Below are positions 211 through 14,864 of a DNA stretch of 64,000 nt, in pieces. The DNA comes from a virus. The stretch is from IMG/VR virus record IMGVR_UViG_3300047160_036265; one strand, written 5' to 3'. The translations under genes were made by a program, and so were the position numbers. Within the stretch, counting starts at the first letter, position 1; the number at the start of each line of letters is the position of its first letter. Under the pieces are notes generated by a model. The model did not search any database and had not been told where the DNA came from. It saw nothing but the letters and a program-made list of their open reading frames with translations.

Positions 211-1563
211 TTATCGTGGCCGCAGCAAGGGGAAAAGGATCACATCCCGGATGCTGGCCTGGTCGGTCAAAATGGCGACCAGGCGATCAATCCCCAATCC
301 CATGCCTCCGGCGGGCGGCATTCCGCACTTCAGGGCTTCCACAAACTCCCGGTCCATGACGTGACCGCCCAGCCCCGCCTGCGCACGGAACGCCACAAGT
401 TGCGCGTCAGGATCGTTGTTCTCGGTATATCCTGGGGCGATCTCCTGCCCGGCCATCACAAACTCGAACATCTCGGCATAACCGAAGTAGTCCTTGCTCT
501 CCTTGGCCAGCGGCACTTCGGTCATCGGCAAGTGGGTCACAAACGTGGGCTGCACCAGGGTTTGCTCAACGTGCTGCTCGTAGTGGTCGTACTTCTCCTG
601 GGGATTATTGCCCGGCAGGTCTGGAATGCGCACAACCCGAAACGGCTTTTCCAGGTCGATGACCTTCCCCTGATACTCGAACTGCATCTTGTCGTACAAC
701 AGCAAGCAGCACTTGCGCACCAGGGACGCCACCAGTTCCATCATGCGTTCGTAATTTGCAAATGCGCAGTAGGCTTCGAGGGAAGTGAACTCCGGGTTAT
801 GCTTCGGGCTGATGCCCTCGTTGCGGAAGTTGCGCCCAATTTCAAAAACCTTGTCGAAGCCGCCGATGAGGAGCCGCTTGAGATATAGCTCCGGGGCGAT
901 GCGCATGTACACGGTCATGTCCAGACCGTTATAGAACGTCGTAAATGGCCGGGCCACGGCCCCGCCGGCACTGGCCTGCATGATCGGCGTCTCAACCTCG
1001 ATATAATCCATCTCGGTGAGGTACTGCCGAATACGCCGGATTAGCAGCGAGCGGTTCTTCATAACCGCCATGACTTCTGGCGTCCACAAATCCTGGTGCC
1101 GGTTCCGGTAGCGGGTTTCCTGGTCCCGAAGGCCATCCCGCTTGTCGGGGGGCGGGAGCAGGGCCTTGGAGGCAATCTCGAACTCGTTGACCCAGATGGT
1201 GATTTCGCCGGTCTGGGTAGCACACAGGTTGCCCGTAGCGACGATAATATCACCCAGGTCCAGGTTCTTGACGAGGGTTCGCAGCGTCTCGGTAAGACGC
1301 TGGTGGTCGAAGGCCAACTGGATATTGCCGCTTGAGTCGGTGAGTGTGACGAAGCCCAGCTTGCCCATGCCACGACGCAGGAGGATGCGGCCAGCCACGG
1401 TGAAGACCGGGCCGGTTTCCTTGTCGCAGTCCTCGGCGTTATAGGCGTGGCGGACGGCGTGAATCGGTGTGAAATGAGCCAGGGGGTCAAAGGAGTACGG
1501 GTCGAGGCCCAGCCCCTTGATGACTTCCAGCTTCTTGCGACGGTCTGCTTCGTGTTCAGTCAT
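211..1563 (-). CDS. lysS: lysyl-tRNA synthetase, class II
   Basis: 450-aa ORF with an N-terminal OB anticodon-binding region and class II motifs (FRNEGIS..HNPEFT, GGMGLGIDRLVAIL); full-length similarity to bacterial LysS. Confidence 0.9.
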   Translation of the reverse strand: MTEHEADRRKKLEVIKGLGLDPYSFDPLAHFTPIHAVRHAYNAEDCDKETGPVFTVAGRILLRRGMGKLGFVTLTDSSGNIQLAFDHQRLTETLRTLVKNLDLGDIIVATGNLCATQTGEITIWVNEFEIASKALLPPPDKRDGLRDQETRYRNRHQDLWTPEVMAVMKNRSLLIRRIRQYLTEMDYIEVETPIMQASAGGAVARPFTTFYNGLDMTVYMRIAPELYLKRLLIGGFDKVFEIGRNFRNEGISPKHNPEFTSLEAYCAFANYERMMELVASLVRKCCLLLYDKMQFEYQGKVIDLEKPFRVVRIPDLPGNNPQEKYDHYEQHVEQTLVQPTFVTHLPMTEVPLAKESKDYFGYAEMFEFVMAGQEIAPGYTENNDPDAQLVAFRAQAGLGGHVMDREFVEALKCGMPPAGGMGLGIDRLVAILTDQASIRDVILFPLLRPR

Positions 1564-3407: not shown

Positions 3408-3409
3408 AG

Positions 3410-3482
3410 TACCCCGTAGGGGAATTGAACCCCTGTTTTAGCCTTGAGAGGGCTATGTCCTGGGCCGCTAGACGAACGGGGC
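3410..3482 (-). tRNA. tRNA-Glu(CUC)
   Basis: Canonical cloverleaf read from the reverse complement: acceptor GCCCCGU/ACGGGGU, anticodon loop CUCUCAA, T-loop GGUUCAAUUCC. Confidence 0.75.
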
Positions 3483-3680
3483 AGTCTCCTTTCATTATAT
3501 AGTCCTCCCGCCAAGACTTGCACTTGGGTTGCCTCGGTGTAGGCGAGGAGTCGTAGCTGCTGGACCACGGGAGGAATCAACGAAACCACAGAACAGGAAT
3601 CAAACAAAACACAATGAATAGGAGGCAATATATCAAGAAAAACAGCCCAATCCTTCCCCACGACATATTGCGCCCTCTAG

Positions 3681-3769
3681 TGGACCGACAGAGGAATCGA
3701 ACCTCCTTCCCTCCTGGGAGGGGCCTTATGGCGACCCAGCCAGGCGACCTACCTCTAGTCGATCAGTCC
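3681..3769 (-). tRNA. tRNA, class II (long variable arm); anticodon uncertain
   Basis: Acceptor GGACUGA/UCGGUCC, T-arm GGAGGUUCGAUUCCUC, variable-arm hairpin CCCUCC-CA-GGAGGG; 89 nt. Confidence 0.5.
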
Positions 3770-3886
3770 AAAGAAGCAGGAGAAATTAACGATAAAGGGG
3801 TTTCTTGTTGACCACCGTGCTACTGTTACACTACATCCCTCCGAAGAGAGACGCCGGATTCGCACCGGACCAGCGGTTTGGAATTA

Positions 3887-3919
3887 GAAGTAACCCTCAT
3901 CTGCACCATCCTGCTTTAG
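3887..3919. repeat. tRNA-associated repeat family A copy (GAAGTAACCC-N4-CTGCACCATCC)
   Basis: Motif lies immediately 3' of tRNA-Gln on the gene strand. A matching GGAGAAAT...GGGGTTTC half sits about 100 nt away at 3787-3815. Confidence 0.6.
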
Positions 3920-3989
3920 CTGCCCGGCAAGGAGTCGAACCTCGATCTTCACGTTCAAAGCGTGACATCCTACCTTTAGACGACCGGGC
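3920..3989 (-). tRNA. tRNA-Gln(UUG)
   Basis: Acceptor GCCCGGU/GCCGGGC, anticodon arm UCACG-CUUUGAA-CGUGA, T-loop GGUUCGACUCC. Confidence 0.7.
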
Positions 3990-4030
3990 AACATTTTTCC
4001 ATCCTACCAACAAAGACACCAGTTGTAAAG

Positions 4031-4101
4031 CTGACCCGCCTGGATTCGCACCAGGACTAGGTGATCCAAAGTCACCTGTGCTACTGTTACACCACGGGTC
4101 A
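4031..4101 (-). tRNA. tRNA-Gln(UUG), G55-type T-loop
   Basis: Acceptor UGACCCG/CGGGUCA, anticodon loop CUUUGGA, T-arm CCUGG-UGCGAAU-CCAGG. Confidence 0.65.
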
Positions 4102-4470
4102 TCACCAGACCGGCACCCCCTCCTGGTCCAGATTTAAGAACTCGTGGGGGTCAACCGGCTCAACCCCGCCCAGGATGCCAGAGGAATACAGTACCTCACC
4201 CCGCTCCTGGTGACTGCTTTCAAACCACCAACCGTCCTCGTCTTCATAGACCTTTGTTACCAGAACAATCTGGCCCAGGCTGCGGGGGTGACACGCTCCC
4301 ACCAGGCGAACGTACTCCCTTGGCCTCGGAATGTAGCCGTTCTGTGGGTTCCAGGTGCTATAGTGCCGCATGAATGACCCGACAGTTGAAGCGTAGCTGA
4401 GGCACTTTCTTGCGGTGAATGGCCTCGGCAATGTCATTACGCATTCTACCGTAAGCCCGCTCCAACGCAA
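4102..4470 (-). CDS. hypothetical protein
   Basis: 122-aa ORF on the gene strand. Confidence 0.4.
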   Translation of the reverse strand: MRWSGLTVECVMTLPRPFTARKCLSYASTVGSFMRHYSTWNPQNGYIPRPREYVRLVGACHPRSLGQIVLVTKVYEDEDGWWFESSHQERGEVLYSSGILGGVEPVDPHEFLNLDQEGVPVW

Positions 4471-4744
4471 GGGTAGTCGCCAACTGGTCGGTTGTAACCA
4501 CCGTCACCAGCATGTGTTGTGAATCAGGGGCCGGGACAACGGATTCAACGTAAGCATCCCGCAGGCAATCGTCTGCGCAGCCGGGCAGCATCAGATTGAG
4601 GGTGTCCGCCACCTGGGCGCACAGTTGCAGGGCCTTTCGGTTTATGACCTGCTTGCGACCCGCTCCGTCCCAGCGGGGGTCTTGACCGTCACCCGGCCCC
4701 CACTGCTCGCACAACGCCTCTTTTGGCGACTTGTGGAATTTCAC
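4358..4744 (-). CDS. hypothetical protein
   Basis: 128-aa ORF; overlaps the downstream ORF in another frame, so the start is uncertain. Confidence 0.35.
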   Translation of the reverse strand: MKFHKSPKEALCEQWGPGDGQDPRWDGAGRKQVINRKALQLCAQVADTLNLMLPGCADDCLRDAYVESVVPAPDSQHMLVTVVTTDQLATTLALERAYGRMRNDIAEAIHRKKVPQLRFNCRVIHAAL

Positions 4745-5277
4745 TTTTTCCTCTTCTTCTTGGGAACCGGGAGGGGCTTGGTAGCGCTCGGCGGACCAAC
4801 TATTTCATTGGGCAGCACAACATATACCAGCCCGTTCCACTGTTCTCGAAACTTCTCCTTCGACCACTTCCTTACCTTGAGGGCGTGCGTGCCGGTGTTG
4901 TCGATCACTTTGACAAAATCGCCCTCATAATGGACCAGCACCAGCACATGCCCTGGAACGCCAATGGCACAGCCGTAACCATTCTTGCAGGCCCAGCGTA
5001 TCAGGTGTGTATTATATGTTTTCTTGGGCTGAAAATAAAAGGGAATCTTCTTCGCCATCATGGCCTGGACTGCCCGATCCGGGCCAGCGCCGTGCTTATA
5101 GGCAGGATAGAGTTTGTACCCATTCGGCACCTTATTGTGCAGGCACAGCGTCGTCAGGCTGCACCACACACAACTACCATCCTTGTTCCGAATCCTATGT
5201 TCTTGTTTTACATTTACTTGTGTATCTCCTGGGGTGGCGGCAATTGTTACCGCCAGCAGCATCGCCCACATAACCAA
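4741..5277 (-). CDS. secreted protein, possible cysteine peptidase
   Basis: N-terminal signal-like hydrophobic stretch MVMWAMLLAVTIAA; CVWCSL and GYGCAIGVPGHVLVLVHYEG suggest a Cys/His peptidase; lysine-rich tail. Confidence 0.4.
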   Translation of the reverse strand: MVMWAMLLAVTIAATPGDTQVNVKQEHRIRNKDGSCVWCSLTTLCLHNKVPNGYKLYPAYKHGAGPDRAVQAMMAKKIPFYFQPKKTYNTHLIRWACKNGYGCAIGVPGHVLVLVHYEGDFVKVIDNTGTHALKVRKWSKEKFREQWNGLVYVVLPNEIVGPPSATKPLPVPKKKRKK

Positions 5278-5315
5278 GCGATCCTTTCAAATAGAGCCTT
5301 TCTATTATAAGAGGA

Positions 5316-5501
5316 TCAATCCTGCCGTTTCCGGGTGCAGTAAAAGAAAAATCCCAGGGCGACCACCAGATAGAGAATCATGAGGAGGGCGGTGACGTAC
5401 CAAGGAGCCTGAAAGATTTGGTTGCCCGTGAAGTGTGCTGCCTTGAGGCTGACAAACGCCAGCACCGAAACTGCCACGGCCTGAAACAACCGTTGTTTCA
5501 T
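5316..5501 (-). CDS. small membrane protein
   Basis: Start moved to the internal Met (MKQRLF...) so the ORF does not overlap tRNA-Cys; two predicted TM helices. Confidence 0.35.
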   Translation of the reverse strand: MKQRLFQAVAVSVLAFVSLKAAHFTGNQIFQAPWYVTALLMILYLVVALGFFFYCTRKRQD

Positions 5502-5514
5502 CACGACCCCCAAG

Positions 5515-5583
5515 AGTCTCCGGTAGGAATCGAACCTACAAAGAACGAGTTTGCAGCCCGTCCCGCCGCCTTGACACGGAGAC
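5515..5583 (-). tRNA. tRNA-Cys(GCA)
   Basis: Acceptor GUCUCCG/CGGAGAC, anticodon loop CUGCAAA, T-arm GUAGG-UUCGAUU-CCUAC. Confidence 0.6.
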
Positions 5584-5887
5584 ATTACCGTTGACCGCCA
5601 CCCCTGATCCTTTTATATGTGTCCCAGACAAGAAACAGTGTCCAGATCACGGTCCAAAGGGCGACAGCCAACAGGTATATTACAGCATCTTCGGCCTTCT
5701 CACGCCAATGATTCCAATTCATCCTCGCCAAGCATTTGCCAAAACGGGTTTTCCCCACGCATCTGCCAGAACACTCGATATTGCCAGGTCCACCCGTTCT
5801 CAGCCCACTGCCTCTCCAATATGGTCATTTCCTTGCCGCCCCTGCGGCGCAGTGCCCGCTCGCCAATCTCAAACCTCGGCTGCGGGA

Positions 5888-6166
5888 TTATCCTCCTTGT
5901 TCTAGTTTGACAGCTTTCTGTTTCCATTGCTCTTGTTCCCACTCCTTTATGTTGGAGGTTGTGACATAGTAGCGTTGGCCACAACCTAGACACCAACATT
6001 TTTCGGGGTGGAGAGCGCCGTTTTCAAGACTCCGATACATTTTTACAATACCGGGTCCAATTTGCGGGTCATAACAGTAACGGCACTGACCCTCGTGGGC
6101 GTGAAATTCGATCTCCTCCGGGGCAGCTTTATGCCGCAACAGGGTGCCGATCTTTCGCCGCTTCAT
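5888..6166 (-). CDS. hypothetical Cys-rich protein
   Basis: Start moved to the internal Met (MKRRKIG...) to avoid the tRNA-like element; CRYCYD..CWCLGCG cysteine clusters. Confidence 0.4.
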   Translation of the reverse strand: MKRRKIGTLLRHKAAPEEIEFHAHEGQCRYCYDPQIGPGIVKMYRSLENGALHPEKCWCLGCGQRYYVTTSNIKEWEQEQWKQKAVKLEQGG

Positions 6167-6184
6167 GACATTCTCCAAGTGCGA

Positions 6185-6262
6185 CCGCCGGGACTCGAAC
6201 CCAGACTTCAGCTTCCGGTAGCGCAAAGTGCATAGCTGCGTGCTGCCTACTAGGGGTTCACG
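6185..6262 (-). tRNA. tRNA-like element (acceptor pairing unresolved)
   Basis: T-loop signature GGGUUCGAGUCCC and a D-arm-like segment; a canonical acceptor stem could not be built by eye. Confidence 0.3.
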
Positions 6263-6448
6263 GGTTGGGTACTCAACAGCCTATTTCGGACGCCTACTGA
6301 CTCCTTGCTCCCATCGGCCTGTCGGCCCTTTCAGCCGCTCACGGTTTTTAAGGTTGCCCTTTGCGCTGTTACCGATGATCCTGGGGAGGGTTCGGACGGC
6401 CCTTTACTGCTGCCTTTCGACAAACCGCTACTACCTTCGCTATTCACA

Positions 6449-7102
6449 CTACGGTCGCAACAGTTTCAATCGTCTCTTTAAGGAGGAGACGCCTCCTATG
6501 TGTTCCATCAACAACTCGCTGGGGAAATACACCGGGATACGCTCGTTGGCGATAAACAAACCCACAGCCAGGTCGTATGGAAGCGAATGTTTCTCTTGGA
6601 TCAACTTCGTCAGATCATCCACCGAAACATTCTTGCCGTACACCGCTCCATTCGTACAACACCAAACGTGATGCCCCCTTTCGTCCATGTGGTCCCCGAC
6701 AAACTTATTGTACCCCTGTCCTGCCGGGTCTGAGGCCATTCCATTCTTATTGCACAAATCCAAGACCCAAGGCGTGTCCGGCAAATCCAGGTTCAGCAAC
6801 TTATCCCACCAACCTGGCGCGAAAACCACATCGTTTTCCATCACCAGGGCGCAGGTGGCTTTGGCCTGTTGCAGACAGCGGCAGTAATTGAACGCCGCTC
6901 GCTCCCAGCCCGGACGACCCTTTGGCCTGTGGAAGTGGAACTCCACAAAGCCACGATAGCGGTCAAAGTAACTGCACTTCAGTCCGTCCATCATTATATG
7001 GATTGGACAACGTACACCGCCCAGGGCCATAGTCGCCAGGGTTTCGTGTATATATTCGGGGTTCCTCTCATATCCAGAGATTATTACTTGGTCGAGTCGC
7101 AC
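6449..7102 (-). CDS. hypothetical protein
   Basis: 217-aa ORF on the gene strand with ordinary amino-acid composition. Confidence 0.5.
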   Translation of the reverse strand: MRLDQVIISGYERNPEYIHETLATMALGGVRCPIHIMMDGLKCSYFDRYRGFVEFHFHRPKGRPGWERAAFNYCRCLQQAKATCALVMENDVVFAPGWWDKLLNLDLPDTPWVLDLCNKNGMASDPAGQGYNKFVGDHMDERGHHVWCCTNGAVYGKNVSVDDLTKLIQEKHSLPYDLAVGLFIANERIPVYFPSELLMEHIGGVSSLKRRLKLLRP

Positions 7103-7262
7103 GTTTTAACAGAGTTACCGCCGGTCGTCTTCCTCGTAAGGAAGGTAGTCGTGAGCGTCCCGGTAACGCCGGCTGGCACTCTGCTGCAAACTGGCGATGG
7201 TGTCCCTGGCGGCTTTCAACTGCCTACGCAGAGAGGCAACCAGAGCCTCCAGTTCAGCGATC

Positions 7263-7682
7263 CTAGCCTCCTTGTCGCCATTCGTCTCCATCTAAATCCT
7301 TTGTGTACATGCCATAATCACACCCAGCCGTTTCCCCGGTGTAATTGATGAAGTCCACGATGATCGCCCGGTCTACCTCGTCCAGTGCCTCCTGCAAGGC
7401 TACGACCTTGGCCACAAAAGCCATTTTACCCAGGATCGTACCTGTGTGGAAATCCCCTTCCCAAAATCCCGGACTCTCCTCGCACTTCTCGACGTACTTT
7501 TCCAGGGTGTCCCTGATGCGGCTGTCGGATGGTTGCACCCCGCCACACTCGTTCATGTGCTGGTTCCTGGCAACACCGTCGTCCCGCTGGTCGAGGTAGA
7601 CGGTTATGCGTCGTTCCAGGGCAGCAATGAGGGAAGCAAAATCATGAACCTTGTCTCTCCCTGGGGGATCAAACGGATTCAT
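7263..7682 (-). CDS. hypothetical protein
   Basis: 139-aa ORF immediately downstream of the sigma factor gene. Confidence 0.45.
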   Translation of the reverse strand: MNPFDPPGRDKVHDFASLIAALERRITVYLDQRDDGVARNQHMNECGGVQPSDSRIRDTLEKYVEKCEESPGFWEGDFHTGTILGKMAFVAKVVALQEALDEVDRAIIVDFINYTGETAGCDYGMYTKDLDGDEWRQGG

Positions 7683-8362
7683 GCCACACCCATCAGCTTG
7701 CGTAAAGTCTCCAGTGCGGAGCGGTGGGCCAACTGCGCTGCCTGGCGAGTGACCTTGCGCTTGGGCCAGCGTTCCCCGATCTGCTCAAAGGTCAGCGGCT
7801 CATTGTCCTCCAAACCATAGTGCAACCGCAATACCATTTGCTCCTTGGGCGGCAGGTGCTTCATGCCTTCGTTCAGGGCCTCAATGTCAATCCAGGTGGT
7901 ATCCAGACCCACGCTCGCCACCGCCAGGGCATCGTCCACCGCCCCCTGGACCATCTTCCTGGCCCGCTGGGCAGCTTTGGCGGTCTTCACCGTATGGGCC
8001 TTCCCGTAGGGCAAGGCTTTGCCCTGCTCCAGAAAGTTGACCAGCCGGTGGGCACAGCCGGGAATGTGAATCAGGTGACGGCCCTGGGTGATGGCACGCT
8101 CCATCCCATGACGGATGGCCTTGCCGGCGTAGGCACCGTACTTGCCCAGCGACTCATCATAGAGTTCTCGGCAGGAGCGGAGCGCCACATACCCAATCTG
8201 GATGAGATCATCGAACTCCAGACCGGGGAGGCGTCCACCCCAGACCCGCCAGTACATACGGGCCAGGGTGAACACCAGGCCCATGTCCTTACATTCGGGG
8301 TGCTTTTCCAAGTCGATCTGCCCAATATCGAGCTTGTAACCCCCAGGCTTCCGTGTTGCCAT
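7679..8362 (-). CDS. sigma-70 family (ECF-like) sigma factor
   Basis: Region 2-like DDLIQIGYVALRSCRELYDESLGKYGAYAGKAIRHGMERAI and region 4 HTH LPPKEQMVLRLHYGL..LTFEQIGERW. Confidence 0.65.
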   Translation of the reverse strand: MATRKPGGYKLDIGQIDLEKHPECKDMGLVFTLARMYWRVWGGRLPGLEFDDLIQIGYVALRSCRELYDESLGKYGAYAGKAIRHGMERAITQGRHLIHIPGCAHRLVNFLEQGKALPYGKAHTVKTAKAAQRARKMVQGAVDDALAVASVGLDTTWIDIEALNEGMKHLPPKEQMVLRLHYGLEDNEPLTFEQIGERWPKRKVTRQAAQLAHRSALETLRKLMGVA

Positions 8363-8374
8363 TTTGTCGGTCCC

Positions 8375-9151
8375 TCAGTCCGAAAGTAACTCCATTTCTT
8401 CGGGCAGAAGGCCGCAGGTGGAATACCACCATTCGGGCGACTTATCCTTGTGGCGCTTCCACATGCGCTTGGCCCGATATAACGTAACTCGCCGCTTCTC
8501 CTCTTGCTCTTTGAGCCAGTCATCAAACACGAACCGCTCCGTACCGTCGAGGTATTTCAACATGCGCCGGAGCAACCGCTGGCAAATATATTCCCTGCCC
8601 TTGCAGCCCGGTTTGATGCCGTTGCGGTACATCATTTCAAGAGTGCGTACATGATCGGCAACCACAGGATGGTGGCGGATGAAAAGAGAAGTATCGTGTA
8701 TATTTTGCTTCTGCTCCACAAGAAGATGAAGGCGTTCCCAACCAAACCCCACGTCAGTAGAATGACCAAGAGGGTTGACGAGATTGCCAATTTCCAGCCC
8801 CCGACTGAAGACTTCACAGCAATGCCCGCCGATATTCCCATCAGACCACACACAATCAGGGTCATCAACAACGGGATAACCTCGTTTAACCCAAAGCTGT
8901 TTGTGGTCGGGCCGGTCGGGGTGGACATGAATGCAGTCAACTTTAATGGCGAGGTCCGTCAGCAGGCAGTGCCAAAGCTCGACGCTGATTTCGTAGTCGT
9001 TGCCGCCAAACGAAAAATTACCAAGCATCTCGAAGTAAGTGAGATGCTGGCCGTCGCCCACAAGTTCTAAATCGTTCGTGCGGACACAGGATTGCAGGGA
9101 GCCGTGCTTGCTCCCGTCTGGATTTAAGAATCTGTTCTTGACCCTCTGCAT
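8375..9151 (-). CDS. alanyl-tRNA synthetase catalytic-core-like fragment protein
   Basis: SCVRTNDLELVGDGQHLTYFEMLGNFSFGG matches AlaRS QRCVRAGGKHNDLENVG..HHTFFEMLGNFSFGDYFK; GGHCCEVF..LEIGNLV matches GPCGPCSEI..IEIWNLVF. Lacks the FTNAGM N-terminus and all C-terminal domains. Confidence 0.55.
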   Translation of the reverse strand: MQRVKNRFLNPDGSKHGSLQSCVRTNDLELVGDGQHLTYFEMLGNFSFGGNDYEISVELWHCLLTDLAIKVDCIHVHPDRPDHKQLWVKRGYPVVDDPDCVWSDGNIGGHCCEVFSRGLEIGNLVNPLGHSTDVGFGWERLHLLVEQKQNIHDTSLFIRHHPVVADHVRTLEMMYRNGIKPGCKGREYICQRLLRRMLKYLDGTERFVFDDWLKEQEEKRRVTLYRAKRMWKRHKDKSPEWWYSTCGLLPEEMELLSD

Positions 9152-9496
9152 ACCAGAGCAAATGAAGAGGGTGGAGGGATCATCGGGAATGATATTCGAG
9201 TCGATGGTGAGGGGAAACCCGAACTGCCCGAAGCGGTCCAGAACTAATTCGTAGCAAGGCGGCGCATATCTATCCTCCAGGTTAGGGTGTTATAGCACAA
9301 AAATAGTCCGGTTCAAGTCCAATAGTCCGGCACCGAAAGCCATAGTCACTGGATTAGGCTCTCTGTCATCCTTTGTGGGACTTCCCTACTCCTGTCATTC
9401 ACCCTTGCGGGATACGGTTATTCCTGACAGTTTCAAGCCAGTGAAACCAGTCCTGTACCACCCGACCAGCGGGCGGTGCCGAACGTAGGCCCTGGT

Positions 9497-9585
9497 CGGT
9501 AGGCCAGTGGGCGGTGAGGGAGTCGAACCCTCACTGAGCCGGCAGTTTTGAACCCTGCGCTCGATCTCAGCAGGCGCAATTGGTC
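9497..9585 (-). tRNA. tRNA-like element (uncertain)
   Basis: T-arm GUGAGGGUUCGACUCCCUCAC present; acceptor and anticodon arms are not canonical. Confidence 0.3.
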
Positions 9586-9622
9586 TATGACGGTCTTGCC
9601 GGTTATCAGGCTCCTGCCCGCC

Positions 9623-9979
9623 CTATTGCACCAACTTGATGAACTGGCGCTGGAGCTTGGGTATCGGACATCCCGGAAAAGACGCCCGAACTTCATCGCT
9701 GATTTCCTGCACGGGGCCGACGCCGAAGAAGGCCCACAGCCACTCCTGCCACTCCTCCTCCGTCAAGTCACGTTTGGGCGTCACCGACAAATGCCACGCT
9801 GCCTTGGTTATTGTAGGCGTGACTCGGCAGATGTCGAAGGAGAAGACAGTCTCAACGATTTGGTCGCCGTAGGCGATATTACGGGCACAGCACTCCGGGA
9901 CAATGAAATGCTTCTCCTGGTCATGGGGGTTCTGCTGGGCGACCAAGGCCATGTCGTTGGCGATTGTGCGCAAGTCCAT
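9623..9979 (-). CDS. hypothetical protein
   Basis: 118-aa ORF on the gene strand. Confidence 0.4.
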   Translation of the reverse strand: MDLRTIANDMALVAQQNPHDQEKHFIVPECCARNIAYGDQIVETVFSFDICRVTPTITKAAWHLSVTPKRDLTEEEWQEWLWAFFGVGPVQEISDEVRASFPGCPIPKLQRQFIKLVQ

Positions 9980-9982
9980 CGC

Positions 9983-10399
9983 TCACTCCTCGTGAATCTC
10001 CATGTCTTCGGAAAGGGCGATCTCCTGTTTGGTGGGGCAGTCGGCACCAAACTCGACGTAGTAGGTGCCGCCGATGATGCTGGTGTCCAGAACGCCTTTA
10101 GCGTGCTGGACCAGAGCGCCATCCTCGTCGCTGAGGTAAATGTCGGTGGCCTTGTTCTTGGCAGTCACCTTCAGCTTCTTATATTGAACGGCGTGCCAGG
10201 CTTCCTTGATGATGTCGTAGTCCCGCTCGCCGGGATTACAGGCGGTCCCACTGCTGCCGTTGAGATACCAGTGGGTCCGCCGCCCCTCCCCCTCCTCGAA
10301 ATCAACCTGGAACGAGACATCCTGTTCCAGAAGGAGACGGATAAACTCGAACAACTGGTACTTGTTGTCGCCTTCATATGCGATGCGTGCCAAGGTCAT
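9983..10399 (-). CDS. hypothetical protein
   Basis: Start set at MTLARIAYEGD, which is preceded by a GGGAGGG Shine-Dalgarno; sits downstream of the L7/L12 gene. Confidence 0.45.
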   Translation of the reverse strand: MTLARIAYEGDNKYQLFEFIRLLLEQDVSFQVDFEEGEGRRTHWYLNGSSGTACNPGERDYDIIKEAWHAVQYKKLKVTAKNKATDIYLSDEDGALVQHAKGVLDTSIIGGTYYVEFGADCPTKQEIALSEDMEIHEE

Positions 10400-10430
10400 T
10401 TCCCTCCCAACGAATTGCAGGCAGATGAGA

Positions 10431-10898
10431 TTACTTGATTGTGACAGTCGCTCCGGCGGCAGCCAGCTTCGCCTTGATCTTTTCGGCTTCTTCACGGCTC
10501 ACGCCCTCCTTGACGGTAGCGGGCGCTTTTGTGACGGCTTCCATCGACTCCTTCAGGCCCATGCCGGTAATCTCGCGCCACACCTTCACGACCCCCACCT
10601 TCTGGGTCATGTCGAGAACGCCCTCCACCACCACCGCAAACTCGGTCTGCTCTGGGGCCTTTTCCGGGGCCTGCTCTGGCTTCTGCTGGTCGGGAACGAT
10701 AAAGCCCGACGACGCCGGCTTGATGCCGTGGACTTCTTCGAGGTACTGGCTGAGGGCCACAGCCTCGGTGAGCGTGAGATTGGCGATGGCGTCACCAATC
10801 TGCACAACATCCTCGCTCCATTCATCCGGCGTGCCAATAGCGATGGAAACCCCGCCGCCCTTGTCGCCGCTGCCCTGAACTTCTGGTTCGTTCATCAA
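10431..10898 (-). CDS. rplL: ribosomal protein bL12 (L7/L12) homolog
   Basis: C-terminal domain [55 protein letters not shown] closely matches the L7/L12 CTD; N-terminal dimerisation-like helix and an Ala/Pro/Glu hinge. Confidence 0.7.
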
Positions 10899-11128
10899 TC
10901 TTCCTCCCAGCTACAGTAGTGTTTGACGGCGACGGTGAACTTCACCAAGTCGGTGTCGGAAAATAAAACCTCGTTGCCCTCAAGCAACGTGTACTTGAAG
11001 GTTTCCGAGTCGGCTTCAATCAGAATTTTGTGGCTGCCGGCAACGAGCGGGGGCTTGTTGCACTTCTTGAGGTAGTGCAGCAAGGTGGGCCACATCTCGC
11101 CAAATTTGGGGTGTTCCAGTGGGTCCAT
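10895..11128 (-). CDS. hypothetical protein
   Basis: ORF trimmed to the internal Met (MDPLEHPKF...). Confidence 0.35.
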
Positions 11129-11133
11129 CACCG

Positions 11134-11475
11134 CTACTCCGGTGTAGGATGGGGTCGATACCGCTTTTGAAATTCCGCACAGCAATATTCTTTGCAGACA
11201 TTGCAGTGCGGGCATATGTGCTTCTCGTGCTGGCAGATGGGCCAAGCATTCATTTCACACATATTGCAGTCGTACCAGTTGCACTCTCCTTCTTTGGGGG
11301 CAACGCCTATTGGGGCCATCGGCCTGCCGCAAAACTCACAGTGGCCGGGGTCGGCCCCCAGGAAGCGCTCATACCAAAGCTTCGGTGCGTCGGCCATAAG
11401 TGCGGCATCCGGGTGCTGCCCCCGGTCCTTCTGGTTGGAAGCCAGATGTACTAGCTGGTAATACCAATGCCGCAA
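11134..11475 (-). CDS. hypothetical Cys-rich protein
   Basis: 113-aa ORF with about 12 Cys and several His (CEFCGRP..CNMCEMNAWPICQHEKHICPHCNVCKEYCC). Confidence 0.4.
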   Translation of the reverse strand: MRHWYYQLVHLASNQKDRGQHPDAALMADAPKLWYERFLGADPGHCEFCGRPMAPIGVAPKEGECNWYDCNMCEMNAWPICQHEKHICPHCNVCKEYCCAEFQKRYRPHPTPE

Positions 11476-11735
11476 TATACATCGCCGTTCTCAGCGATCT
11501 TCTTGTCCTCATACGGCGAGGCAATCCGGCGGTAATATTCGAGCTTGGCACACTCCAAGGCCCCAATTACCGCATTGGCGACCTTGTAGCCGAAGGGCGG
11601 ATGCTGCCGGACATACGCCTGACACAACTGCGTTATCAGGTAGTTCAGTGTACCCTCGGTGTCGATCCCCGCCCGGCTCATGTCCTGAACCAACTGGTTA
11701 AGGCGGTCCCGTTCCTCTTCCTTGATATAAGGCAT
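11451..11735 (-). CDS. hypothetical protein
   Basis: 94-aa ORF on the gene strand. Confidence 0.4.
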   Translation of the reverse strand: MPYIKEEERDRLNQLVQDMSRAGIDTEGTLNYLITQLCQAYVRQHPPFGYKVANAVIGALECAKLEYYRRIASPYEDKKIAENGDVYCGIGITS

Positions 11736-11742
11736 CTTGCCC

Positions 11743-11985
11743 TCATTTCTTCTTTTTCAACAACCTCGAAGTCGTCACATATGCCAGCAGATCGGTCTGC
11801 AACTGCTCCACCATATCAAGCCGCCCATCATCCAGCACGTCAATCCCTGGGTAGTTGGCCTTGCAATACTCGCTCACTTCATCATTGCTGTAGAGCGAGT
11901 GGAACAGGACGGTGGAGTTGGGCAGGTCGCATATGATGCGCCGCAGGACCATCGACAGGAAGCCGTTCTTATCCATTTTTCTCAC
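11743..11985 (-). CDS. hypothetical protein
   Basis: 80-aa ORF on the gene strand. Confidence 0.4.
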   Translation of the reverse strand: MRKMDKNGFLSMVLRRIICDLPNSTVLFHSLYSNDEVSEYCKANYPGIDVLDDGRLDMVEQLQTDLLAYVTTSRLLKKKK

Positions 11986-12067
11986 CCACGACGCATGACA
12001 GAGTTAAAGCACCATGTCAACACTACCAGGAAAACCAACAAACCCAAGGCTTCCATGTCATCTCCAG

Positions 12068-12138
12068 TGCGGAATACGGGAATCGAACCCGTGCCTCGAC
12101 GTTGGGAACGTCACATTCTACCATTAAACTAATTCCGC
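12068..12138 (-). tRNA. tRNA-Gly(CCC)
   Basis: Acceptor GCGGAAU/AUUCCGC, anticodon loop UUCCCAA, T-arm ACGGG-UUCGAUU-CCCGU. Confidence 0.7.
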
Positions 12139-12144
12139 AGCAAC

Positions 12145-12375
12145 TCACGCTGGTGGTGGCAGTTGGCGCTCTTTATCCCACAGGTGGTAGCCGTAGTAAC
12201 CTAGTAACCCTGCCACCAAAGCGCCCATGACGCTTACCCACATGGGGATGTGCAAGCCGCCGATTGTCATGTCGGCTTGGAAGGCCAACCGCACCACATG
12301 CACGAAGGCCATTACCAGAAAGATGACATAGGAAATCAGCAAATATATCCGAAGCATAGCCCTCCTTAACTCCAC
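12145..12375 (-). CDS. small membrane protein
   Basis: 76-aa ORF with two hydrophobic helices. Confidence 0.4.
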   Translation of the reverse strand: MELRRAMLRIYLLISYVIFLVMAFVHVVRLAFQADMTIGGLHIPMWVSVMGALVAGLLGYYGYHLWDKERQLPPPA

Positions 12376-12384
12376 CCTTATATA

Positions 12385-12720
12385 TCAACGACGCTTTCTT
12401 TTGCAGTGAAGTTTCCGGTGACAGTTTGAGCAGATGCACCGGCACTTCTCAATCTCCGCAAGAATCTTCTCCTTTGAAACCCGGTTGCTTATCGCTGTCG
12501 CAATTTCAAAGAGCTTGGTCTTGGGGTCTTTGTGGTGAAAGTCCAGACAGGCAGCGTCATTTTCAGGACATCGCTCGCAGGTGCGCTGGCACTTCAAGTC
12601 CCAGAGCCAGTCCTGCATTGCCTTCTTTCTGGCCCGGCCCCGCTCCCGATATATTGCCTTGTTCTTCTGGTAATGATCCTTCTGAGCCTTTAACTGTTCG
12701 GCACGTTCTTTGTATGGCAT
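12385..12720 (-). CDS. HNH endonuclease
   Basis: CERCPEND..CLDFHHKDPKTK..CSNCHRKLH fits an HNH/His-Me finger; lies next to tRNA genes, as phage homing endonucleases often do. Confidence 0.55.
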   Translation of the reverse strand: MPYKERAEQLKAQKDHYQKNKAIYRERGRARKKAMQDWLWDLKCQRTCERCPENDAACLDFHHKDPKTKLFEIATAISNRVSKEKILAEIEKCRCICSNCHRKLHCKRKRR

Positions 12721-12742
12721 ACCTACATTATAGTAGGTTCAA

Positions 12743-12835
12743 CTCGTCAGGCAGGACTCGAACCTGCAACCTGGCGGTTAAGTTAAGGTCTGTCAGGACC
12801 AACAGCCGCCTGCTCTACCATTGAGCTACTGACGA
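12743..12835 (-). tRNA. tRNA-Asn(GUU)-like with about 21-nt insertion in the anticodon arm
   Basis: Acceptor UCGUCAG/CUGACGA, D-arm GCUC-AAUGGUA-GAGC, T-arm GCAGG-UUCGAGU-CCUGC; anticodon stem GGCGG/CCGCC encloses 28 nt (CUGUUGG plus a GGUC-CUGACA-GACC hairpin). Confidence 0.5.
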
Positions 12836-13035
12836 TCATGTTCTCCTTATCATCTTCTGCCCGGCTTTTTTGTCGCAATCCACATGATGCGGTCGGTGAG
12901 CATATCAATGACCACAACCACACGGGCCTCGCCCCACAGAATCAGGGCCATGTTGATAAAGGCGATGCTCACCCCTGCAAAGAAGGGTAGGATGTTCTTC
13001 TTCTTCAGCATTCCCTACCCCTCCGTGGCGACGGT

Positions 13036-13614: not shown

Positions 13615-13825
13615 GCGTGGCCTCCTCGGCGTCAAAGAGTTTGGCCTCCAACTCCTCCAACAGCAGCCGGGTCGGGGTGCCAGGGGAAAACTCGTGCATT
13701 CCCCACGGCTCGCCAGGGGGACCGTCCTTCTCATCCCGGAAGTACACGGTCAAGTCGCCCTGTTCCCATTCTACTGACAGGAATTGGGGGTTGTCAGCCA
13801 GAAATTGCTCGATGATCGGGTTCAC
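13604..13825 (-). CDS. hypothetical protein
   Basis: 73-aa acidic ORF. Confidence 0.35.
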   Translation of the reverse strand: MNPIIEQFLADNPQFLSVEWEQGDLTVYFRDEKDGPPGEPWGMHEFSPGTPTRLLLEELEAKLFDAEEATHGA

Positions 13826-14445: not shown

Positions 14446-14450
14446 GGCAG

Positions 14451-14835: not shown

Positions 14836-14864
14836 GCCTTATTATAGTGTGAAGTGCAAAGAAG

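What the first reader, a model, noticed from the sequence alone, without database searches (positions are those of the whole stretch)
211..1563. Three intact aminoacyl-tRNA synthetases (LysRS-II, CysRS, minimal TrpRS) plus an AlaRS-core fragment in the same element
lysS (211-1563), cysS (56106-57320) and a 232-aa TrpRS-like protein (21298-21996) retain HIGH/KMSKS or class II motifs and look functional. The TrpRS is about 100 aa shorter than bacterial enzymes. Alongside about 58 tRNA genes this is a partial, self-contained aminoacylation repertoire.
Basis: partly seen in the sequence, partly recalled or inferred. Interest (0 to 1): 0.7.

Follow-up and report, generated by a model that had tools for sequence, protein, structure and literature searches.

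The report
Megaphage synthetase set with frameshift-gated TrpRS
A roughly 670-kb soil phage carries compact lysyl-, cysteinyl-, tryptophanyl- and alanyl-tRNA synthetase genes among about 50 tRNA genes, which is a known habit of huge phages, but its shrunken TrpRS gene can apparently be read only after a +1 ribosomal frameshift at a tryptophan codon, which looks like a built-in sensor of charged tRNA-Trp.

Summary
All four genes exist, all on the minus strand. LysRS (211-1563) passes NCBI's lysS cut-offs. CysRS (56106-57320) scores just under its cut-off but keeps HIGH, KMGKS and the residues aligning with the known zinc ligands. The 232-aa TrpRS-like ORF (21298-21996) and the AlaRS "fragment" (8375-9151, conserved frame open to 9289) are not debris. 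Each belongs to a conserved family of miniaturised enzymes found on 100-673 kb viral contigs, including published 635-735 kb Mahaphage genomes, and not seen above 38% identity in 185,579 cellular species genomes. tRNAs number 48-52, not 58. Cognate tRNAs for Lys, Cys, Trp and Ala are present with the identity elements I expect for bacteria. A huge phage with aaRS genes and tRNAs is already known (Al-Shayeb 2020).

The new point is the TrpRS start. The annotated TTG is not a conserved start. In 10 of 10 lineages the only SD-ATG lies one base out of frame and opens ATG..GTG-NNN-CTT-TGG followed by an early stop. The TrpRS frame begins right after CTT_T and has no start of its own. This copies the prfB CUU_UGA cassette with the cognate Trp codon in place of the stop, suggesting autoregulation by Trp-tRNA charging. 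The AlaRS-like gene has an out-of-frame leader ORF with a conserved Ala codon; its mechanism is unresolved.

The parts
211..1563 (-). Class II lysyl-tRNA synthetase, 450 aa, ordinary ATG start. It lacks about 35-45 aa of the insertion between motifs 2 and 3.
   Evidence: above the lysS equivalog cut-offs; PDB alignment: FRNEG and GMGLGIDRL kept; the deletion is shared by phage-type relatives; identical in three other assemblies.
8375..9289 (-). Mini-AlaRS-like gene. The called ORF is 8375-9151 (258 aa). The conserved frame stays open to 9289 and encodes the N-terminal region that relatives also encode, but has no canonical start there.
   Evidence: AF2 model pLDDT 88. Foldseek top hits are AlaRS catalytic fragments, TMq 0.75-0.80.
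9244..9278 (-). SD GGAGGA (9278-9273), then ATG 9267-9265 opening a 7-codon leader ORF (MRRLATN*, Ala codon GCT 9255-9253, stop TAG 9246-9244). It sits in the +1 register relative to the AlaRS frame.
   Evidence: The same arrangement occurs in 11 further related loci.
21298..22002 (-). Mini-TrpRS coding frame. GGC 22002-22000 is the first codon after the proposed shift; the stop is at 21298-21300. The annotated TTG start is 21996-21994.
   Evidence: AF2 pLDDT 91. Foldseek to bacterial TrpRS gives TMq about 0.8. dN/dS about 0.09.
21983..22028 (-). Proposed +1 frameshift cassette: SD AAGGAG 22028-22023; ATG 22015-22013; GTG CGT; shift codon CTT 22006-22004; Trp codon TGG 22003-22001; zero-frame stop TAG 21985-21983.
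   Evidence: 10 of 10 lineages carry RGGTG-NNN-CTT-TGG.
56106..57320 (-). Cysteinyl-tRNA synthetase, 404 aa, ordinary ATG start, with a compacted CP and C-terminal region.
   Evidence: nearest cluster representative is 403 aa at 49% identity, aligned end to end.
22908..22991 (-). tRNA-Trp(CCA), 84 nt, G73. A second copy lies at 26126-26200.
30829..30900 (-). tRNA-Ala(GGC) with G3:U70 and A73. Missed by default ARAGORN.
14450..14522 (-). tRNA-Lys(UUU), A73. Further tRNA-Lys genes at 29108-29183 (CUU) and 31954-32027 (UUU).
5514..5583 (-). tRNA-Cys(GCA), U73. A second copy lies at 33655-33739.
14864..14951 (-). tRNA-Leu(GAG). From my own knowledge, this anticodon type reads CUU and is the slipping tRNA in prfB-type shifts.
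   Evidence: Any role here is inference only.
3409..51513 (-). tRNA gene island of 48-52 genes, interleaved with small ORFs and translation genes: EF-Tu 24683-25861, bL12 10431-10898, weak RbfA-like 4358-4744.

Best explanation
The window is part of the translation-gene island of a roughly 670-kb soil megaphage. The phage is related to the published Mahaphages, and its host is possibly a planctomycete. It encodes two compact but canonical synthetases (LysRS, CysRS) that most likely charge phage and host tRNAs. It also encodes two heavily miniaturised enzymes (a TrpRS of about 238 aa and an AlaRS core of about 290-300 aa) that belong to conserved megaphage-specific families. Both most likely still activate their amino acid and act on acceptor stems. 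The mini-TrpRS gene is expressed by recoding. Ribosomes start at the SD-ATG at 22015, read ATG GTG CGT CUU, and shift +1 on CUU_U when the next codon, UGG, is slow to be read. They then continue as GGC AAG UUG UGC... to give MVRL-GKLCGFRPTG.... Because UGG is read only by charged tRNA-Trp, the product of the enzyme's own reaction, the cassette would work as a negative-feedback sensor, as prfB does with RF2 and UGA. Shown: the genes, their families, purifying selection, the conserved cassette, and the lack of any in-frame start. Inferred: the frameshift itself, its dependence on Trp-tRNA charging, and the enzymatic activities.
For: Phage origin:
- The exact LysRS and TrpRS proteins lie on one 669,797-bp contig.
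- Relatives sit on IMG/VR contigs of 78-533 kb.
- Orthologues of the two mini-enzymes occur inside tRNA arrays of the curated 635-, 642- and 735-kb phage genomes (PMC7162821).
- The best cellular matches among 185,579 species genomes are only 30-38% identical.

Functionality:
- HMM scores support the assignments.
- Residues invariant in 55 homologues are H34, M105, D108, G118, D120, Q121, H124, and KMSKS is kept in at least 90%.
- dN/dS is 0.086 for the unsaturated pair L005/L006.
- Both AF2 models are confident and match TrpRS and AlaRS catalytic fragments.
- Cognate tRNAs carry G73, U73, A73 and G3:U70.

Frameshift:
- 10 of 10 lineages have an SD 4-8 nt before an ATG that is one base out of frame, then (0-2 codons) GTG NNN CTT TGG and a stop 0-6 unconserved codons later.
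- The TrpRS frame has a stop 0-7 codons upstream of the shift site in at least 7 lineages and no start codon.
- The Leu codon taken as the start in the window is CTT, CTA or CTC in 6 of 10 lineages.
- The Ser codon just after the site uses all four TCN codons, which are synonymous only in the TrpRS frame.
- TTT is invariant although the window's genes use TTC for 71% of Phe codons and CTT for 10% of Leu codons.
- Only 14 of the 120 best database members have an ordinary N-terminal ATG; gene callers truncate the rest.
- CUU_U is the most efficient RF2-type shift site, and RF2 has an SD-like stimulator upstream of it (PMC5009743).
Against: - No experiment and no proteomic or ribosome-profiling data exist.
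- UGG is normally read quickly, so the shift may be inefficient or constitutive rather than regulated.
- The SD-like GGUG is only 4 nt long.
- The TrpRS-like protein lacks about 70 aa of the anticodon-binding domain, including the last 50 aa, and scores far below the trpS equivalog cut-off, so tRNA charging is unproven.
- A minority of family members (14 of the 120 best clusters, plus L008 and L016) have a plain in-frame ATG and no cassette, so recoding is not essential to the family.
- No structural phage gene lies inside the window.
- The host assignment rests only on the nearest neighbours of LysRS.
Confidence: 0.62

Rival explanations
1. There is no frameshift. The SD-ATG opens a genuine short upstream leader ORF, and the TrpRS is initiated separately at the Leu codon of LCGF (TTG in the window) or another near-cognate codon, by translational coupling or reinitiation. 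The leader's Trp codon could still make this a stalling-type sensor.
For: The window (TTG) and L014 (TTG) have a usable start. L005 and L228 have CTG. The AlaRS-like family shows real coupling motifs in some lineages: TAATG in L019, TGATG in L028, GTGA in L026.
Against: Six of 10 lineages have CTT, CTA or CTC at that codon. The residues G-S/D-K between CTT_T and LCGF are conserved with synonymous variation in the TrpRS frame, so they are translated in that frame. CTT and TTT are invariant at synonymous sites, against the window's codon bias. The leader stop position varies from 1 to 7 codons after the site, so there is no fixed stop-start overlap.
Confidence: 0.15
2. The mini-TrpRS and mini-AlaRS are not tRNA-charging enzymes. 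They only activate Trp or Ala (aminoacyl-AMP) for another acceptor such as a carrier protein, a small molecule or a tRNA-like RNA, or they act as tRNA-binding decoys or regulators.
For: Both lack large parts of the tRNA-recognition apparatus. The TrpRS-like protein has lost about 70 aa of the anticodon-binding domain. The AlaRS-like protein has no editing or C-Ala domains and only a compacted helical domain. Scores are far below the trpS equivalog cut-off. From my own knowledge, free-standing aaRS-like adenylating enzymes are known.
Against: Both genes sit inside tRNA arrays next to cognate tRNAs in phages ranging from 30% to 57% GC. Catalytic and KMSKS residues are conserved. A viral AlaRS lacking editing and C-Ala domains charges tRNA-Ala and microhelices (PMC10036535). 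A cognate codon in each gene's leader fits a link to charged tRNA levels.
Confidence: 0.25
3. The short TrpRS and AlaRS genes are decaying remnants of genes captured from a host (pseudogenes), and the out-of-frame ATG reflects an old indel.
For: Their length is about 70% (TrpRS) and about 35% (AlaRS) of cellular enzymes. Canonical in-frame starts are missing.
Against: Hundreds of homologues of the same short length were found: 1182 and 382 hits. The families persist from 86% down to 33% identity, dN/dS is about 0.09, and there are 25 and 39 invariant columns. The models are confident. The same one-base offset with the same heptamer occurs in 10 lineages.
Confidence: 0.03
4. The window is chromosomal or plasmid DNA of a bacterium rather than phage DNA.
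For: No capsid, portal or terminase gene lies in the 64 kb. Some homologues are filed under bacterial MAG names, for example Planctomycetota. The window gave no megablast hit in INPHARED.
Against: Eighty-three of 94 predicted genes are on one strand, and most have no Pfam or PHROG family. There are about 50 tRNAs in 48 kb. The window contains no rRNA. Relatives are IMG/VR viral contigs and curated circular Mahaphage genomes. The family is absent from species-representative cellular genomes.
Confidence: 0.05

Closest known systems
Translation-gene repertoires of huge phages (Al-Shayeb et al. 2020, PMC7162821)
   Same: Genome above 600 kb, dozens of tRNAs, several aaRS genes, EF-Tu and a ribosomal protein. 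Orthologues of the mini-TrpRS and mini-AlaRS occur in the published 635-, 642- and 735-kb genomes.
   Different: GC is 57% against about 30-32% in L008 and L009. The source is soil metagenomes, and the LysRS neighbours are planctomycete rather than Bacteroidetes. The main text of that paper has no occurrence of the word 'truncated', and none of the passages I read describes miniaturised enzymes or recoded starts.
prfB (RF2) autoregulatory +1 programmed frameshift, CUU_UGA_C with an upstream SD-like stimulator
   Same: A short zero-frame ORF; shift codon CUU followed by U; an SD-like element (GGUG) 3 nt upstream of CUU; an early zero-frame stop; the functional protein entirely in the +1 frame. 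The slow A-site codon is read by the molecule whose supply depends on the gene product.
   Different: The A-site codon is a sense codon (UGG) rather than a stop. The shift is at codon 4-6 instead of 26. The stimulator is weaker. The gene is an aaRS in a phage. No experimental evidence exists.
Ty1 / ABP140 +1 frameshift at CUU_AGG_C (hungry sense codon)
   Same: tRNA-Leu slips from CUU to UUN while a slowly decoded sense codon waits in the A site (PMC5009743).
   Different: In Ty1 the slowness comes from a rare tRNA, and the ratio is largely set rather than feeding back on the product. The 2016 review states that no examples are known of hungry-codon frameshifting producing functional trans-frame proteins specific for starvation conditions.
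Tupanvirus mini-AlaRS (PMC10036535)
   Same: [quoted passage not shown]
   Different: TuAlaRS keeps the full aminoacylation domain, that is, the catalytic plus tRNA-recognition domains. The phage protein is only about 290-300 aa, and its model aligns in compacted form along the 441-aa E. coli catalytic fragment. The host domain is different, and activity is untested.
Leader-peptide control with cognate codons (trpL, pheM, hisL); named from my own knowledge
   Same: A short leader ORF with a codon for the amino acid handled by the downstream gene: Trp for TrpRS, Ala for AlaRS.
   Different: Classical leaders act through transcription attenuation, using several cognate codons and terminator/antiterminator hairpins. 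Here the leader overlaps the coding start in another frame, and Rfam found no known leader element in the window.

Membership tests
Class II lysyl-tRNA synthetase (lysS) | N-terminal OB-fold anticodon-binding domain plus class II D/K/N catalytic core | tested here: met
   PF01336 58.7 bits (residues 55-130) and PF00152 259 bits (147-446).
Class II lysyl-tRNA synthetase (lysS) | Score above the curated equivalog cut-off | tested here: met
   TIGR00499 458.5 against 427.6; NF001756 497.9 against 468.
Class II lysyl-tRNA synthetase (lysS) | Class II motifs 2 and 3 | tested here: met
   FRNEG and GMGLGIDRL align with solved LysRS and with cellular LysRS. An insertion of about 35-45 aa between them is deleted.
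Class II lysyl-tRNA synthetase (lysS) | Lysylation of tRNA-Lys | not testable with these tools
   Needs enzyme assays.
Cysteinyl-tRNA synthetase (cysS) | Class I catalytic domain with HIGH and KMSKS | tested here: met
   PF01406 302 bits. HIGH and KMGKS are visible in the alignment to 8qhp.
Cysteinyl-tRNA synthetase (cysS) | Zinc ligands of the cysteine pocket (E. coli C28, C209, H234, E238; numbering from my own knowledge) | tested here: met
   yaCgvtpyd, gwhteCav and fpHhEne align with the same residues of solved CysRS.
Cysteinyl-tRNA synthetase (cysS) | Score above the curated equivalog cut-off | tested here: not met
   TIGR00435 333.1 against 340, a narrow miss caused by about 60 aa of deletions.
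Cysteinyl-tRNA synthetase (cysS) | C-terminal anticodon-binding domain | tested here: inconclusive
   DALR_2 26.4 bits over 19 residues; CysS_C 16.7 bits against a cut-off of 23. Some full-length hits align to residue 392-394.
Tryptophanyl-tRNA synthetase (trpS) | Class Ic Rossmann core with HIGH-type and KMSKS motifs and the GxDQ motif | tested here: met
   PF00579 99.5 bits. HLGH, KKMSKS and GEDQHQH are present. G118, D120, Q121 and H124 are invariant and KMSKS is kept in at least 90% of 55 homologues.
Tryptophanyl-tRNA synthetase (trpS) | Trp-pocket residues (B. stearothermophilus M129, D132, H43; numbering from my own knowledge) | tested here: met
   M105, D108 and H34 are invariant and align with LMAADI and DQHA of solved or cellular TrpRS.
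Tryptophanyl-tRNA synthetase (trpS) | Score above the curated equivalog cut-off | tested here: not met
   TIGR00233 97.2 against 176.75.
Tryptophanyl-tRNA synthetase (trpS) | Complete helical anticodon-binding domain and C-terminal helices | tested here: not met
   Internal deletions of 13 and 8 aa and loss of the last 50 aa or so relative to Salmonella TrpRS. Only three helices follow KMSKS in the model.
Tryptophanyl-tRNA synthetase (trpS) | TrpRS fold | tested here: met
   The top 50 Foldseek PDB hits are all TrpRS chains (one a design built on that scaffold), TMq 0.69-0.84.
Alanyl-tRNA synthetase (alaS) | Class II AlaRS aminoacylation domain | tested here: met
   PF01411 76 bits against 30.3. 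Foldseek to E. coli, human and A. aeolicus AlaRS catalytic fragments gives E about 1e-15. R67, D176, G178, G180, E182, R183 and N166 are invariant and W145 nearly invariant.
Alanyl-tRNA synthetase (alaS) | [quoted passage not shown] | tested here: not met
   The protein ends after a few helices (258-301 aa against about 875). No editing or C-Ala match was found.
RF2-type autoregulatory +1 frameshift cassette | Shift site CUU_U with the functional ORF in the +1 frame and no start of its own | tested here: met
   10 of 10 lineages. In-frame stops lie just upstream in at least 7.
RF2-type autoregulatory +1 frameshift cassette | Early zero-frame termination after the site | tested here: met
   The stop comes 0-6 codons after UGG, and the sequence between is not conserved.
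RF2-type autoregulatory +1 frameshift cassette | A-site codon is the stop UGA read by the gene's own product | tested here: not met
   The codon is UGG (Trp). The analogy is functional only: it is read by Trp-tRNA, the product of the enzyme's reaction.
RF2-type autoregulatory +1 frameshift cassette | SD-like stimulator 3 nt upstream of CUU | tested here: inconclusive
   GGUG is invariant at that spacing, but it is only 4 nt long and overlaps conserved codons.
RF2-type autoregulatory +1 frameshift cassette | Frameshifting demonstrated and responsive to the sensed factor | not testable with these tools
   Needs reporter assays or mass spectrometry.
Huge phage of the Mahaphage kind | Genome above 500 kb with a shared gene set | tested here: met
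   669,797-bp contig. Orthologues occur in LR745206 and LR756501-3.
Huge phage of the Mahaphage kind | Placement by terminase or capsid phylogeny | not tested
   No structural gene lies in the window, and the rest of the contig could not be read.

The most novel reading that the evidence does not exclude
Megaphage mini-synthetase genes are switched on by the shortage of their own product. For TrpRS, a +1 programmed frameshift at CUU_UGG is triggered when Trp-tRNA-Trp is scarce. The AlaRS-like gene is probably controlled by a related leader-ORF device built around an Ala codon. This would be the first natural case of 'hungry sense-codon' recoding used as a sensor, and the first aaRS known to be autoregulated in the way RF2 is.
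Probability: 0.4. Interest if true: 0.85.

Novelty: new variant of a known kind. Interest (0 to 1): 0.68.

Why it matters
aaRS genes and tRNAs in a huge phage are textbook by now, so that part alone is ordinary. Two things go further.

First, the largest known phages keep conserved, drastically shortened TrpRS and AlaRS cores. These are natural test cases for how little protein is needed to charge a tRNA, a question so far approached with engineered 'urzymes' and one giant-virus mini-AlaRS.

Second, the TrpRS start looks like the RF2 frameshift switch rebuilt around the cognate sense codon. The 2016 recoding review says no natural example is known of hungry-codon frameshifting that yields a functional product. 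A 45-nt cassette that reports Trp-tRNA charging would be directly testable in E. coli and useful as a sensor.

There is also a practical point. Gene callers mis-start or truncate about 90% of this family (106 of the 120 best clusters), so database entries for these proteins are wrong at the N-terminus.

Tried and rejected
- Megablast of 20 kb against INPHARED gave no match. tblastn of a 507-aa ORFan gave no match.
- PHROGs on 10 ORFans gave only phrog_33218 and a phosphoesterase.
- Most 'phage' hits to LysRS, TrpRS and AlaRS in INPHARED are bacterial contigs filed as phage, so I discounted them.
- Exact look-ups of P0001 and of the right-end gene were not on record, so the rest of the 669,797-bp contig could not be read and no virion gene could be shown.
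I did not inspect them. Only one listed contig (L117) is one already known to carry the gene, so I take most to be chance matches to a 15-mer.
- The metagenome scan with the AlaRS alignment used patterns that were too generic and returned mostly ordinary cellular AlaRS; only L027-L030 were useful.
- I looked by eye for a -1 slippery site, or a consistent P-site re-pairing, in the AlaRS leaders and found none. Termination-reinitiation explains L019, L026 and L028, and weakly those with ATA, ATT or CTG, but not L021, L022, L233 or L234.
- I first read the window's AlaRS start as CTG 9280, replacing the ATG of MEDRYAPP in relatives. This remains possible.
- dN/dS between the window and L004-L006 is saturated at synonymous sites, so only L005/L006 is informative.
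- The extra mini class II aaRS-like gene of L229 has no homologue in the window.
- BFVD holds no phage relative of the mini-TrpRS.
Full report

The three ORFs are at the stated coordinates, all on the minus strand. Their GC by codon position (about 0.60/0.37/0.78) matches the other 83 minus-strand genes I predicted from that signal.

- **LysRS (211-1563).** Pfam gives PF00152 at 259 bits plus the OB anticodon-binding domain PF01336. It exceeds the curated lysS cut-offs: TIGR00499 458.5 against 427.6, and NF001756 497.9 against 468.
- **CysRS (56106-57320).** PF01406 at 302 bits, but TIGR00435 at 333.1 just misses its cut-off of 340.
- **TrpRS-like (21298-21996).** PF00579 at 99.5 bits, but TIGR00233 at 97 is far below its cut-off of 176.75.
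- **tRNAs.** ARAGORN finds 48. Rfam finds 45, four of them additional. The count is therefore about 50-52, not 58.
- **Resequencing.** The lysS gene is base-for-base identical in three other assemblies from different samples.

**2. What element is this?**

- The exact LysRS and TrpRS-like proteins are both on record on a 669,797-bp contig.
- Homologues of the TrpRS-like protein (53-86% identical) lie on contigs of 511-673 kb and on IMG/VR viral contigs of 78-511 kb.
- The AlaRS-like family lies on viral contigs up to 533 kb and on contigs of 568 and 669 kb.
- Both families have orthologues at 32-34% identity in the curated huge-phage genomes LR745206 (634,780 bp), LR756502 (642,428 bp) and LR756501/3 (735,411 bp). 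There too they are short ORFs embedded in tRNA arrays. Genomes of 634, 636, 642 and 735 kb are the four largest reported by Al-Shayeb et al., and that paper places its largest genomes in the Mahaphage clade (PMC7162821).
- A scan of one genome for each of 185,579 bacterial and archaeal species found nothing closer than 30-38% identity, and those hits look like ordinary cellular TrpRS.
- The window has no rRNA, and most of its genes have no Pfam or PHROG family.
- It also carries EF-Tu, ribosomal protein bL12, a weak RbfA-like protein, a Ro60/TROVE protein, a polynucleotide kinase/phosphatase-like protein, an NAD-dependent ligase, two sigma-70-like proteins and a ThiF-JAB pair.
- I conclude that it is a megaphage and not a chromosome. 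The caveat is that no virion gene lies in the 64 kb and the rest of the contig could not be read.
- The nearest cellular LysRS sequences (44-51% identical) are from Tepidisphaeraceae and Phycisphaerales. That is a weak hint of a planctomycete host.

**3. The two canonical enzymes**

*LysRS.* It aligns end to end with solved bacterial LysRS and keeps FRNEG (motif 2) and GMGLGIDRL (motif 3). It lacks about 35-45 aa of the insertion between these motifs. About 20 relatives of 424-470 aa show the same shortening, and bacterial enzymes do not.

*CysRS.* It keeps HIGH, KMGKS and the residues that align with the zinc ligands of solved CysRS. It is about 60 aa shorter than usual, through small deletions in the CP and C-terminal regions. 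Its nearest cluster representative is 403 aa long and aligns over the whole length.

Both genes start at ordinary ATG codons.

Cognate tRNAs are present:
- three tRNA-Lys with A73;
- two tRNA-Cys with U73;
- two tRNA-Trp with G73;
- one tRNA-Ala(GGC) with G3:U70 and A73, found once ARAGORN's threshold was relaxed.

Reading these as bacterial identity elements rests on my own knowledge.

**4. The two mini-enzymes are conserved families, not debris**

*TrpRS-like.*
- It has 1182 database hits at E below 1e-5, and the best 120 clusters are 200-286 aa long.
- In an alignment of 55 members, H34, M105, D108, G118, D120, Q121 and H124 are invariant, and KMSKS is present in at least 90%. These positions align with residues I know as the Trp-pocket and catalytic residues of bacterial TrpRS.
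- The one pair of relatives that is not saturated at synonymous sites gives dN/dS = 0.086.
- The AlphaFold model is confident (pLDDT 91). Its 50 best PDB matches are all TrpRS chains (one a design built on that scaffold), with TM 0.69-0.84 normalised by the query.
- Against Salmonella TrpRS, the missing 100 aa comprise about 17 aa of small deletions in the Rossmann/CP1 part, 13 and 8 aa inside the anticodon-binding domain, and the last 50 aa or so.

*AlaRS-like.*
- It has 382 hits, with lengths of 255-310 aa.
- There are 39 invariant columns, including the R67, D176, G178, G180, E182 and R183 positions.
- The model is confident (pLDDT 88). It aligns along the whole 420-441-aa catalytic fragment of E. 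coli AlaRS in compacted form (TMq 0.75-0.80).
- It has no editing or C-Ala domain.
- A giant-virus AlaRS without those two domains does charge tRNA-Ala and microhelices (PMC10036535). The phage protein is smaller still.

Whether either mini-enzyme charges tRNA is inference.

**5. The start of the TrpRS gene: the main new finding**

Upstream of the annotated TTG (21996), the TrpRS frame stays open for ten codons back to the TAA of the preceding gene. It encodes G-E-I-L-W-C-V-F-G-K and contains no start codon.

A good Shine-Dalgarno sequence (AAGGAG, 22028-22023) lies 7 nt before an ATG at 22015-22013. That ATG is one base out of register. From it the reading is ATG GTG CGT CTT TGG CAA GTT GTG CGG CTT TAG.

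I collected DNA for ten independent lineages: the window, L004, L005, L013 (the same contig as L229), L014, L227, L228, L230, L231 and L232. All ten show the following:
- an SD 4-8 nt before an ATG in that same register;
- then 0-2 codons, then GTG NNN CTT TGG;
- a stop 0-6 codons later, with no conservation of what lies between;
- the TrpRS frame running on from the base after CTT_T as G-(S/D)-K-(x)-L-C-G-F-R-P-T-G.

Evidence that the TrpRS frame is translated from just after CTT_T:
- In at least seven lineages the TrpRS frame has a stop within 0-7 codons upstream of the site. In L004 and L231 a TGA overlaps the leader ATG itself. No in-frame initiation is therefore possible.
- The Leu codon that the window's ORF call uses as its start is TTG in only two lineages. 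It is CTG in two and CTT, CTA or CTC in six.
- The Ser codon two codons after the site appears as TCT, TCG, TCC and TCA. These are synonymous only in the TrpRS frame.
- By contrast, CTT and TTT never vary, although the window's genes use TTC for 71% of Phe codons and CTT for only 10% of Leu codons.
- Gene callers struggle with this family. Of the 120 best clusters, only 14 have an ordinary M-x(1-4)-[IL]-C-G start. Another 73 are called from internal codons, 21 from the Leu codon, 12 carry a fortuitous upstream extension that reads ...WCVFG..., and one has a longer upstream extension.

The simplest reading is an obligatory +1 frameshift on CUU_U, giving MVRL|GKLCGFRPTG... (238 aa in the window).

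**6. How it most likely works**

The cassette has the architecture of prfB. It has a short zero-frame ORF, CUU followed by U, an SD-like element (GGUG, invariant) 3 nt upstream of CUU, an early zero-frame stop, and the whole functional protein in the +1 frame.

The recoding review of Atkins et al. calls CUU_U by far the most efficient RF2-type shift site. It describes how low RF2 slows decoding of the A-site UGA and raises frameshifting (PMC5009743).

Here the A-site codon is UGG, the only Trp codon, read only by charged tRNA-Trp. That makes it like Ty1's CUU_AGG_C, where a slowly read sense codon drives the same tRNA-Leu slip.

The inferred circuit is this. When Trp-tRNA-Trp is plentiful, UGG is read and the ribosome terminates after a 5-11-residue peptide. 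When it is scarce, for instance because the phage's own tRNA-Trp genes outrun the available TrpRS, the ribosome pauses, slips, and makes TrpRS.

The same review states that for hungry-codon frameshifting producing functional trans-frame proteins 'no examples are known'. My full-text search for 'programmed frameshift' together with 'tryptophanyl-tRNA synthetase' returned no paper.

- Shown: the conserved cassette and the lack of any alternative start.
- Inferred: that the shift occurs, and that it responds to charging.
- Limits: distant family members, including the published 642-kb phage (L008) and L016, have a plain in-frame ATG (MKYLIGIQPTG, MKTIVGIRPTG). The device therefore belongs to a subclade, much as not all prfB genes use frameshifting.

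**7. The start of the AlaRS-like gene: related, but unresolved**

In the window the conserved frame is open from 9289 and encodes the N-terminal region that relatives also encode (...RYAPPCYELVLDRFGQFGFPLTIDSNIIPDDPSTLFICSG-MQ). It has no ATG, GTG or TTG before Met 9151.

An SD (GGAGGA) followed 5 nt later by ATG (9267-9265) sits in the +1 register. It opens ATG CGC CGC CTT GCT ACG AAT TAG.

Twelve loci, including the published 635-kb phage, have such an out-of-frame ATG leader of 4-12 codons, and in nearly all of them a Shine-Dalgarno-like purine run precedes the ATG (the AT-rich L009 is the exception). Each has an Ala codon at codon 4-6: MSQRDA*, MNTRDA*, MNSQDAY*, MKRLDAF*, MSPLNA*, MTERKAQ*, MTLHSAPLM*, MYQLNAIR*, MLGALRA*, MLEA*, MSQREAHKR* and MRRLATN*.

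- In three loci the leader stop overlaps a canonical in-frame start: TAATG, TGATG and GTGA. That points to translational coupling.
- In the others only ATA, ATT or CTG, or nothing, is available. Reaching the main frame from the leader would need a -1 shift, and I could not find a consistent slippery site for one.
- Forty-four of 120 database members are called from the internal Met.
- In the window's closest relatives an in-frame ATG (MEDRYAPP...) exists where the window has CTG 9280. A CTG start is therefore an alternative for this particular genome.

I report this as an unexplained but clearly non-random feature: each of the two mini-synthetase genes has a leader ORF carrying its cognate codon.

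**8. Verdict**

The finding as written is real but largely ordinary. Huge phages with up to 67 tRNAs and up to 15 aaRS genes are published.

What raises the interest is the conserved miniaturisation of two synthetases across the largest known phages and, above all, the RF2-like cassette built on the cognate sense codon.

My estimates are about 0.75 that a +1 shift is needed to express the gene, and about 0.4-0.5 that it acts as a charging sensor.

Noticed in passing
window 9244-9278 (-); also L009, L018-L022, L026, L028, L029, L233-L235: The AlaRS-like genes are preceded by an SD-ATG leader ORF in the +1 register (4-12 codons) that always holds an Ala codon at codon 4-6. In most lineages the main frame has no canonical start. 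Three lineages show stop-start overlaps (TAATG, TGATG, GTGA).
   Followed up: partly
window 10431-10898 (-), 24683-25861 (-), 4358-4744 (-): Phage-encoded ribosomal protein bL12 (PF00542 and PF16320), a full three-domain EF-Tu (392 aa), and a weak RbfA-like protein (23 bits, below cut-off) sit in the same island as the synthetases.
   Followed up: partly
window 51570-53588 (-), 58206-60281 (-), 61225-62382 (-): A Ro60/TROVE-domain protein lies directly downstream of two tRNA-Arg genes (51222-51513). With an NAD-dependent DNA ligase and a kinase/HAD-phosphatase protein (PNK-like), this is a possible RNA quality-control or repair module. I did not search for a Y-RNA-like partner.
   Followed up: no
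window 29738-29809 (-); L004 6201-6296; L005 9236-9310 and 9408-9480; L006 2030-2104: These are tRNA-like genes with abnormal anticodon loops. The window copy has an 8-nt loop, ACUUUAGA, which ARAGORN calls 'Lys|Stop'. Relatives show 2- and 4-base 'anticodons'. They are possible suppressor or frameshift-related tRNAs.
   Followed up: no
window 22908-22991, 33655-33739, 12743-12835, 40859-40952 (-): These tRNAs are unusually long: tRNA-Trp 84 nt, tRNA-Cys 85 nt, tRNA-Gln 93 nt, and a 94-nt Rfam tRNA hit that ARAGORN models with a 22-nt intron. By my reading, the first three carry extra sequence in the variable region, which is unusual for these isotypes.
   Followed up: no
window 34560-36383 (-): A 607-aa protein with only the NTPase and finger domains of DNA polymerase III alpha (DnaE). 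No other DnaE domain family was matched.
   Followed up: no
window 43049-44996 (-); L004 165-1798; L005 394-1098: A ThiF-like (E1-like) gene sits next to a JAB-domain protein. Homologues of both lie upstream of the TrpRS/tRNA island in L004, and of the ThiF-like gene in L005 (43-52% identity).
   Followed up: partly
L229 2422-3147 (614,480-bp contig): A relative carries a further miniature class II synthetase-like gene (241 aa, PF00587 tRNA-synt_2b) two genes downstream of its TrpRS-like gene. The window has no homologue.
   Followed up: partly
IMG/VR contigs 3300049215_000771 (532,729 bp) and _000772 (134,115 bp); L017 and L004/L010: The closest IMG/VR relatives of the AlaRS-like and TrpRS-like genes come from one sample on two contigs. 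Their lengths sum to 666.8 kb, close to the 669.8-kb source contig, so they may be one genome split in two.
   Followed up: no
window 7679-8362 (-), 47105-47668 (-); 19581-19952 and 28427-28768 (-): Two sigma-70-like proteins (regions 2 and 4, weak scores) and two DUF4288 paralogues lie within the island.
   Followed up: no
L001 8124-11969 (beyond the left end of the window): The same phage continues past lysS with a DUF2934 protein and two more tRNA genes, tRNA-Arg(UCU) and tRNA-Arg(CCU). The tRNA island therefore extends outside the window.
   Followed up: partly
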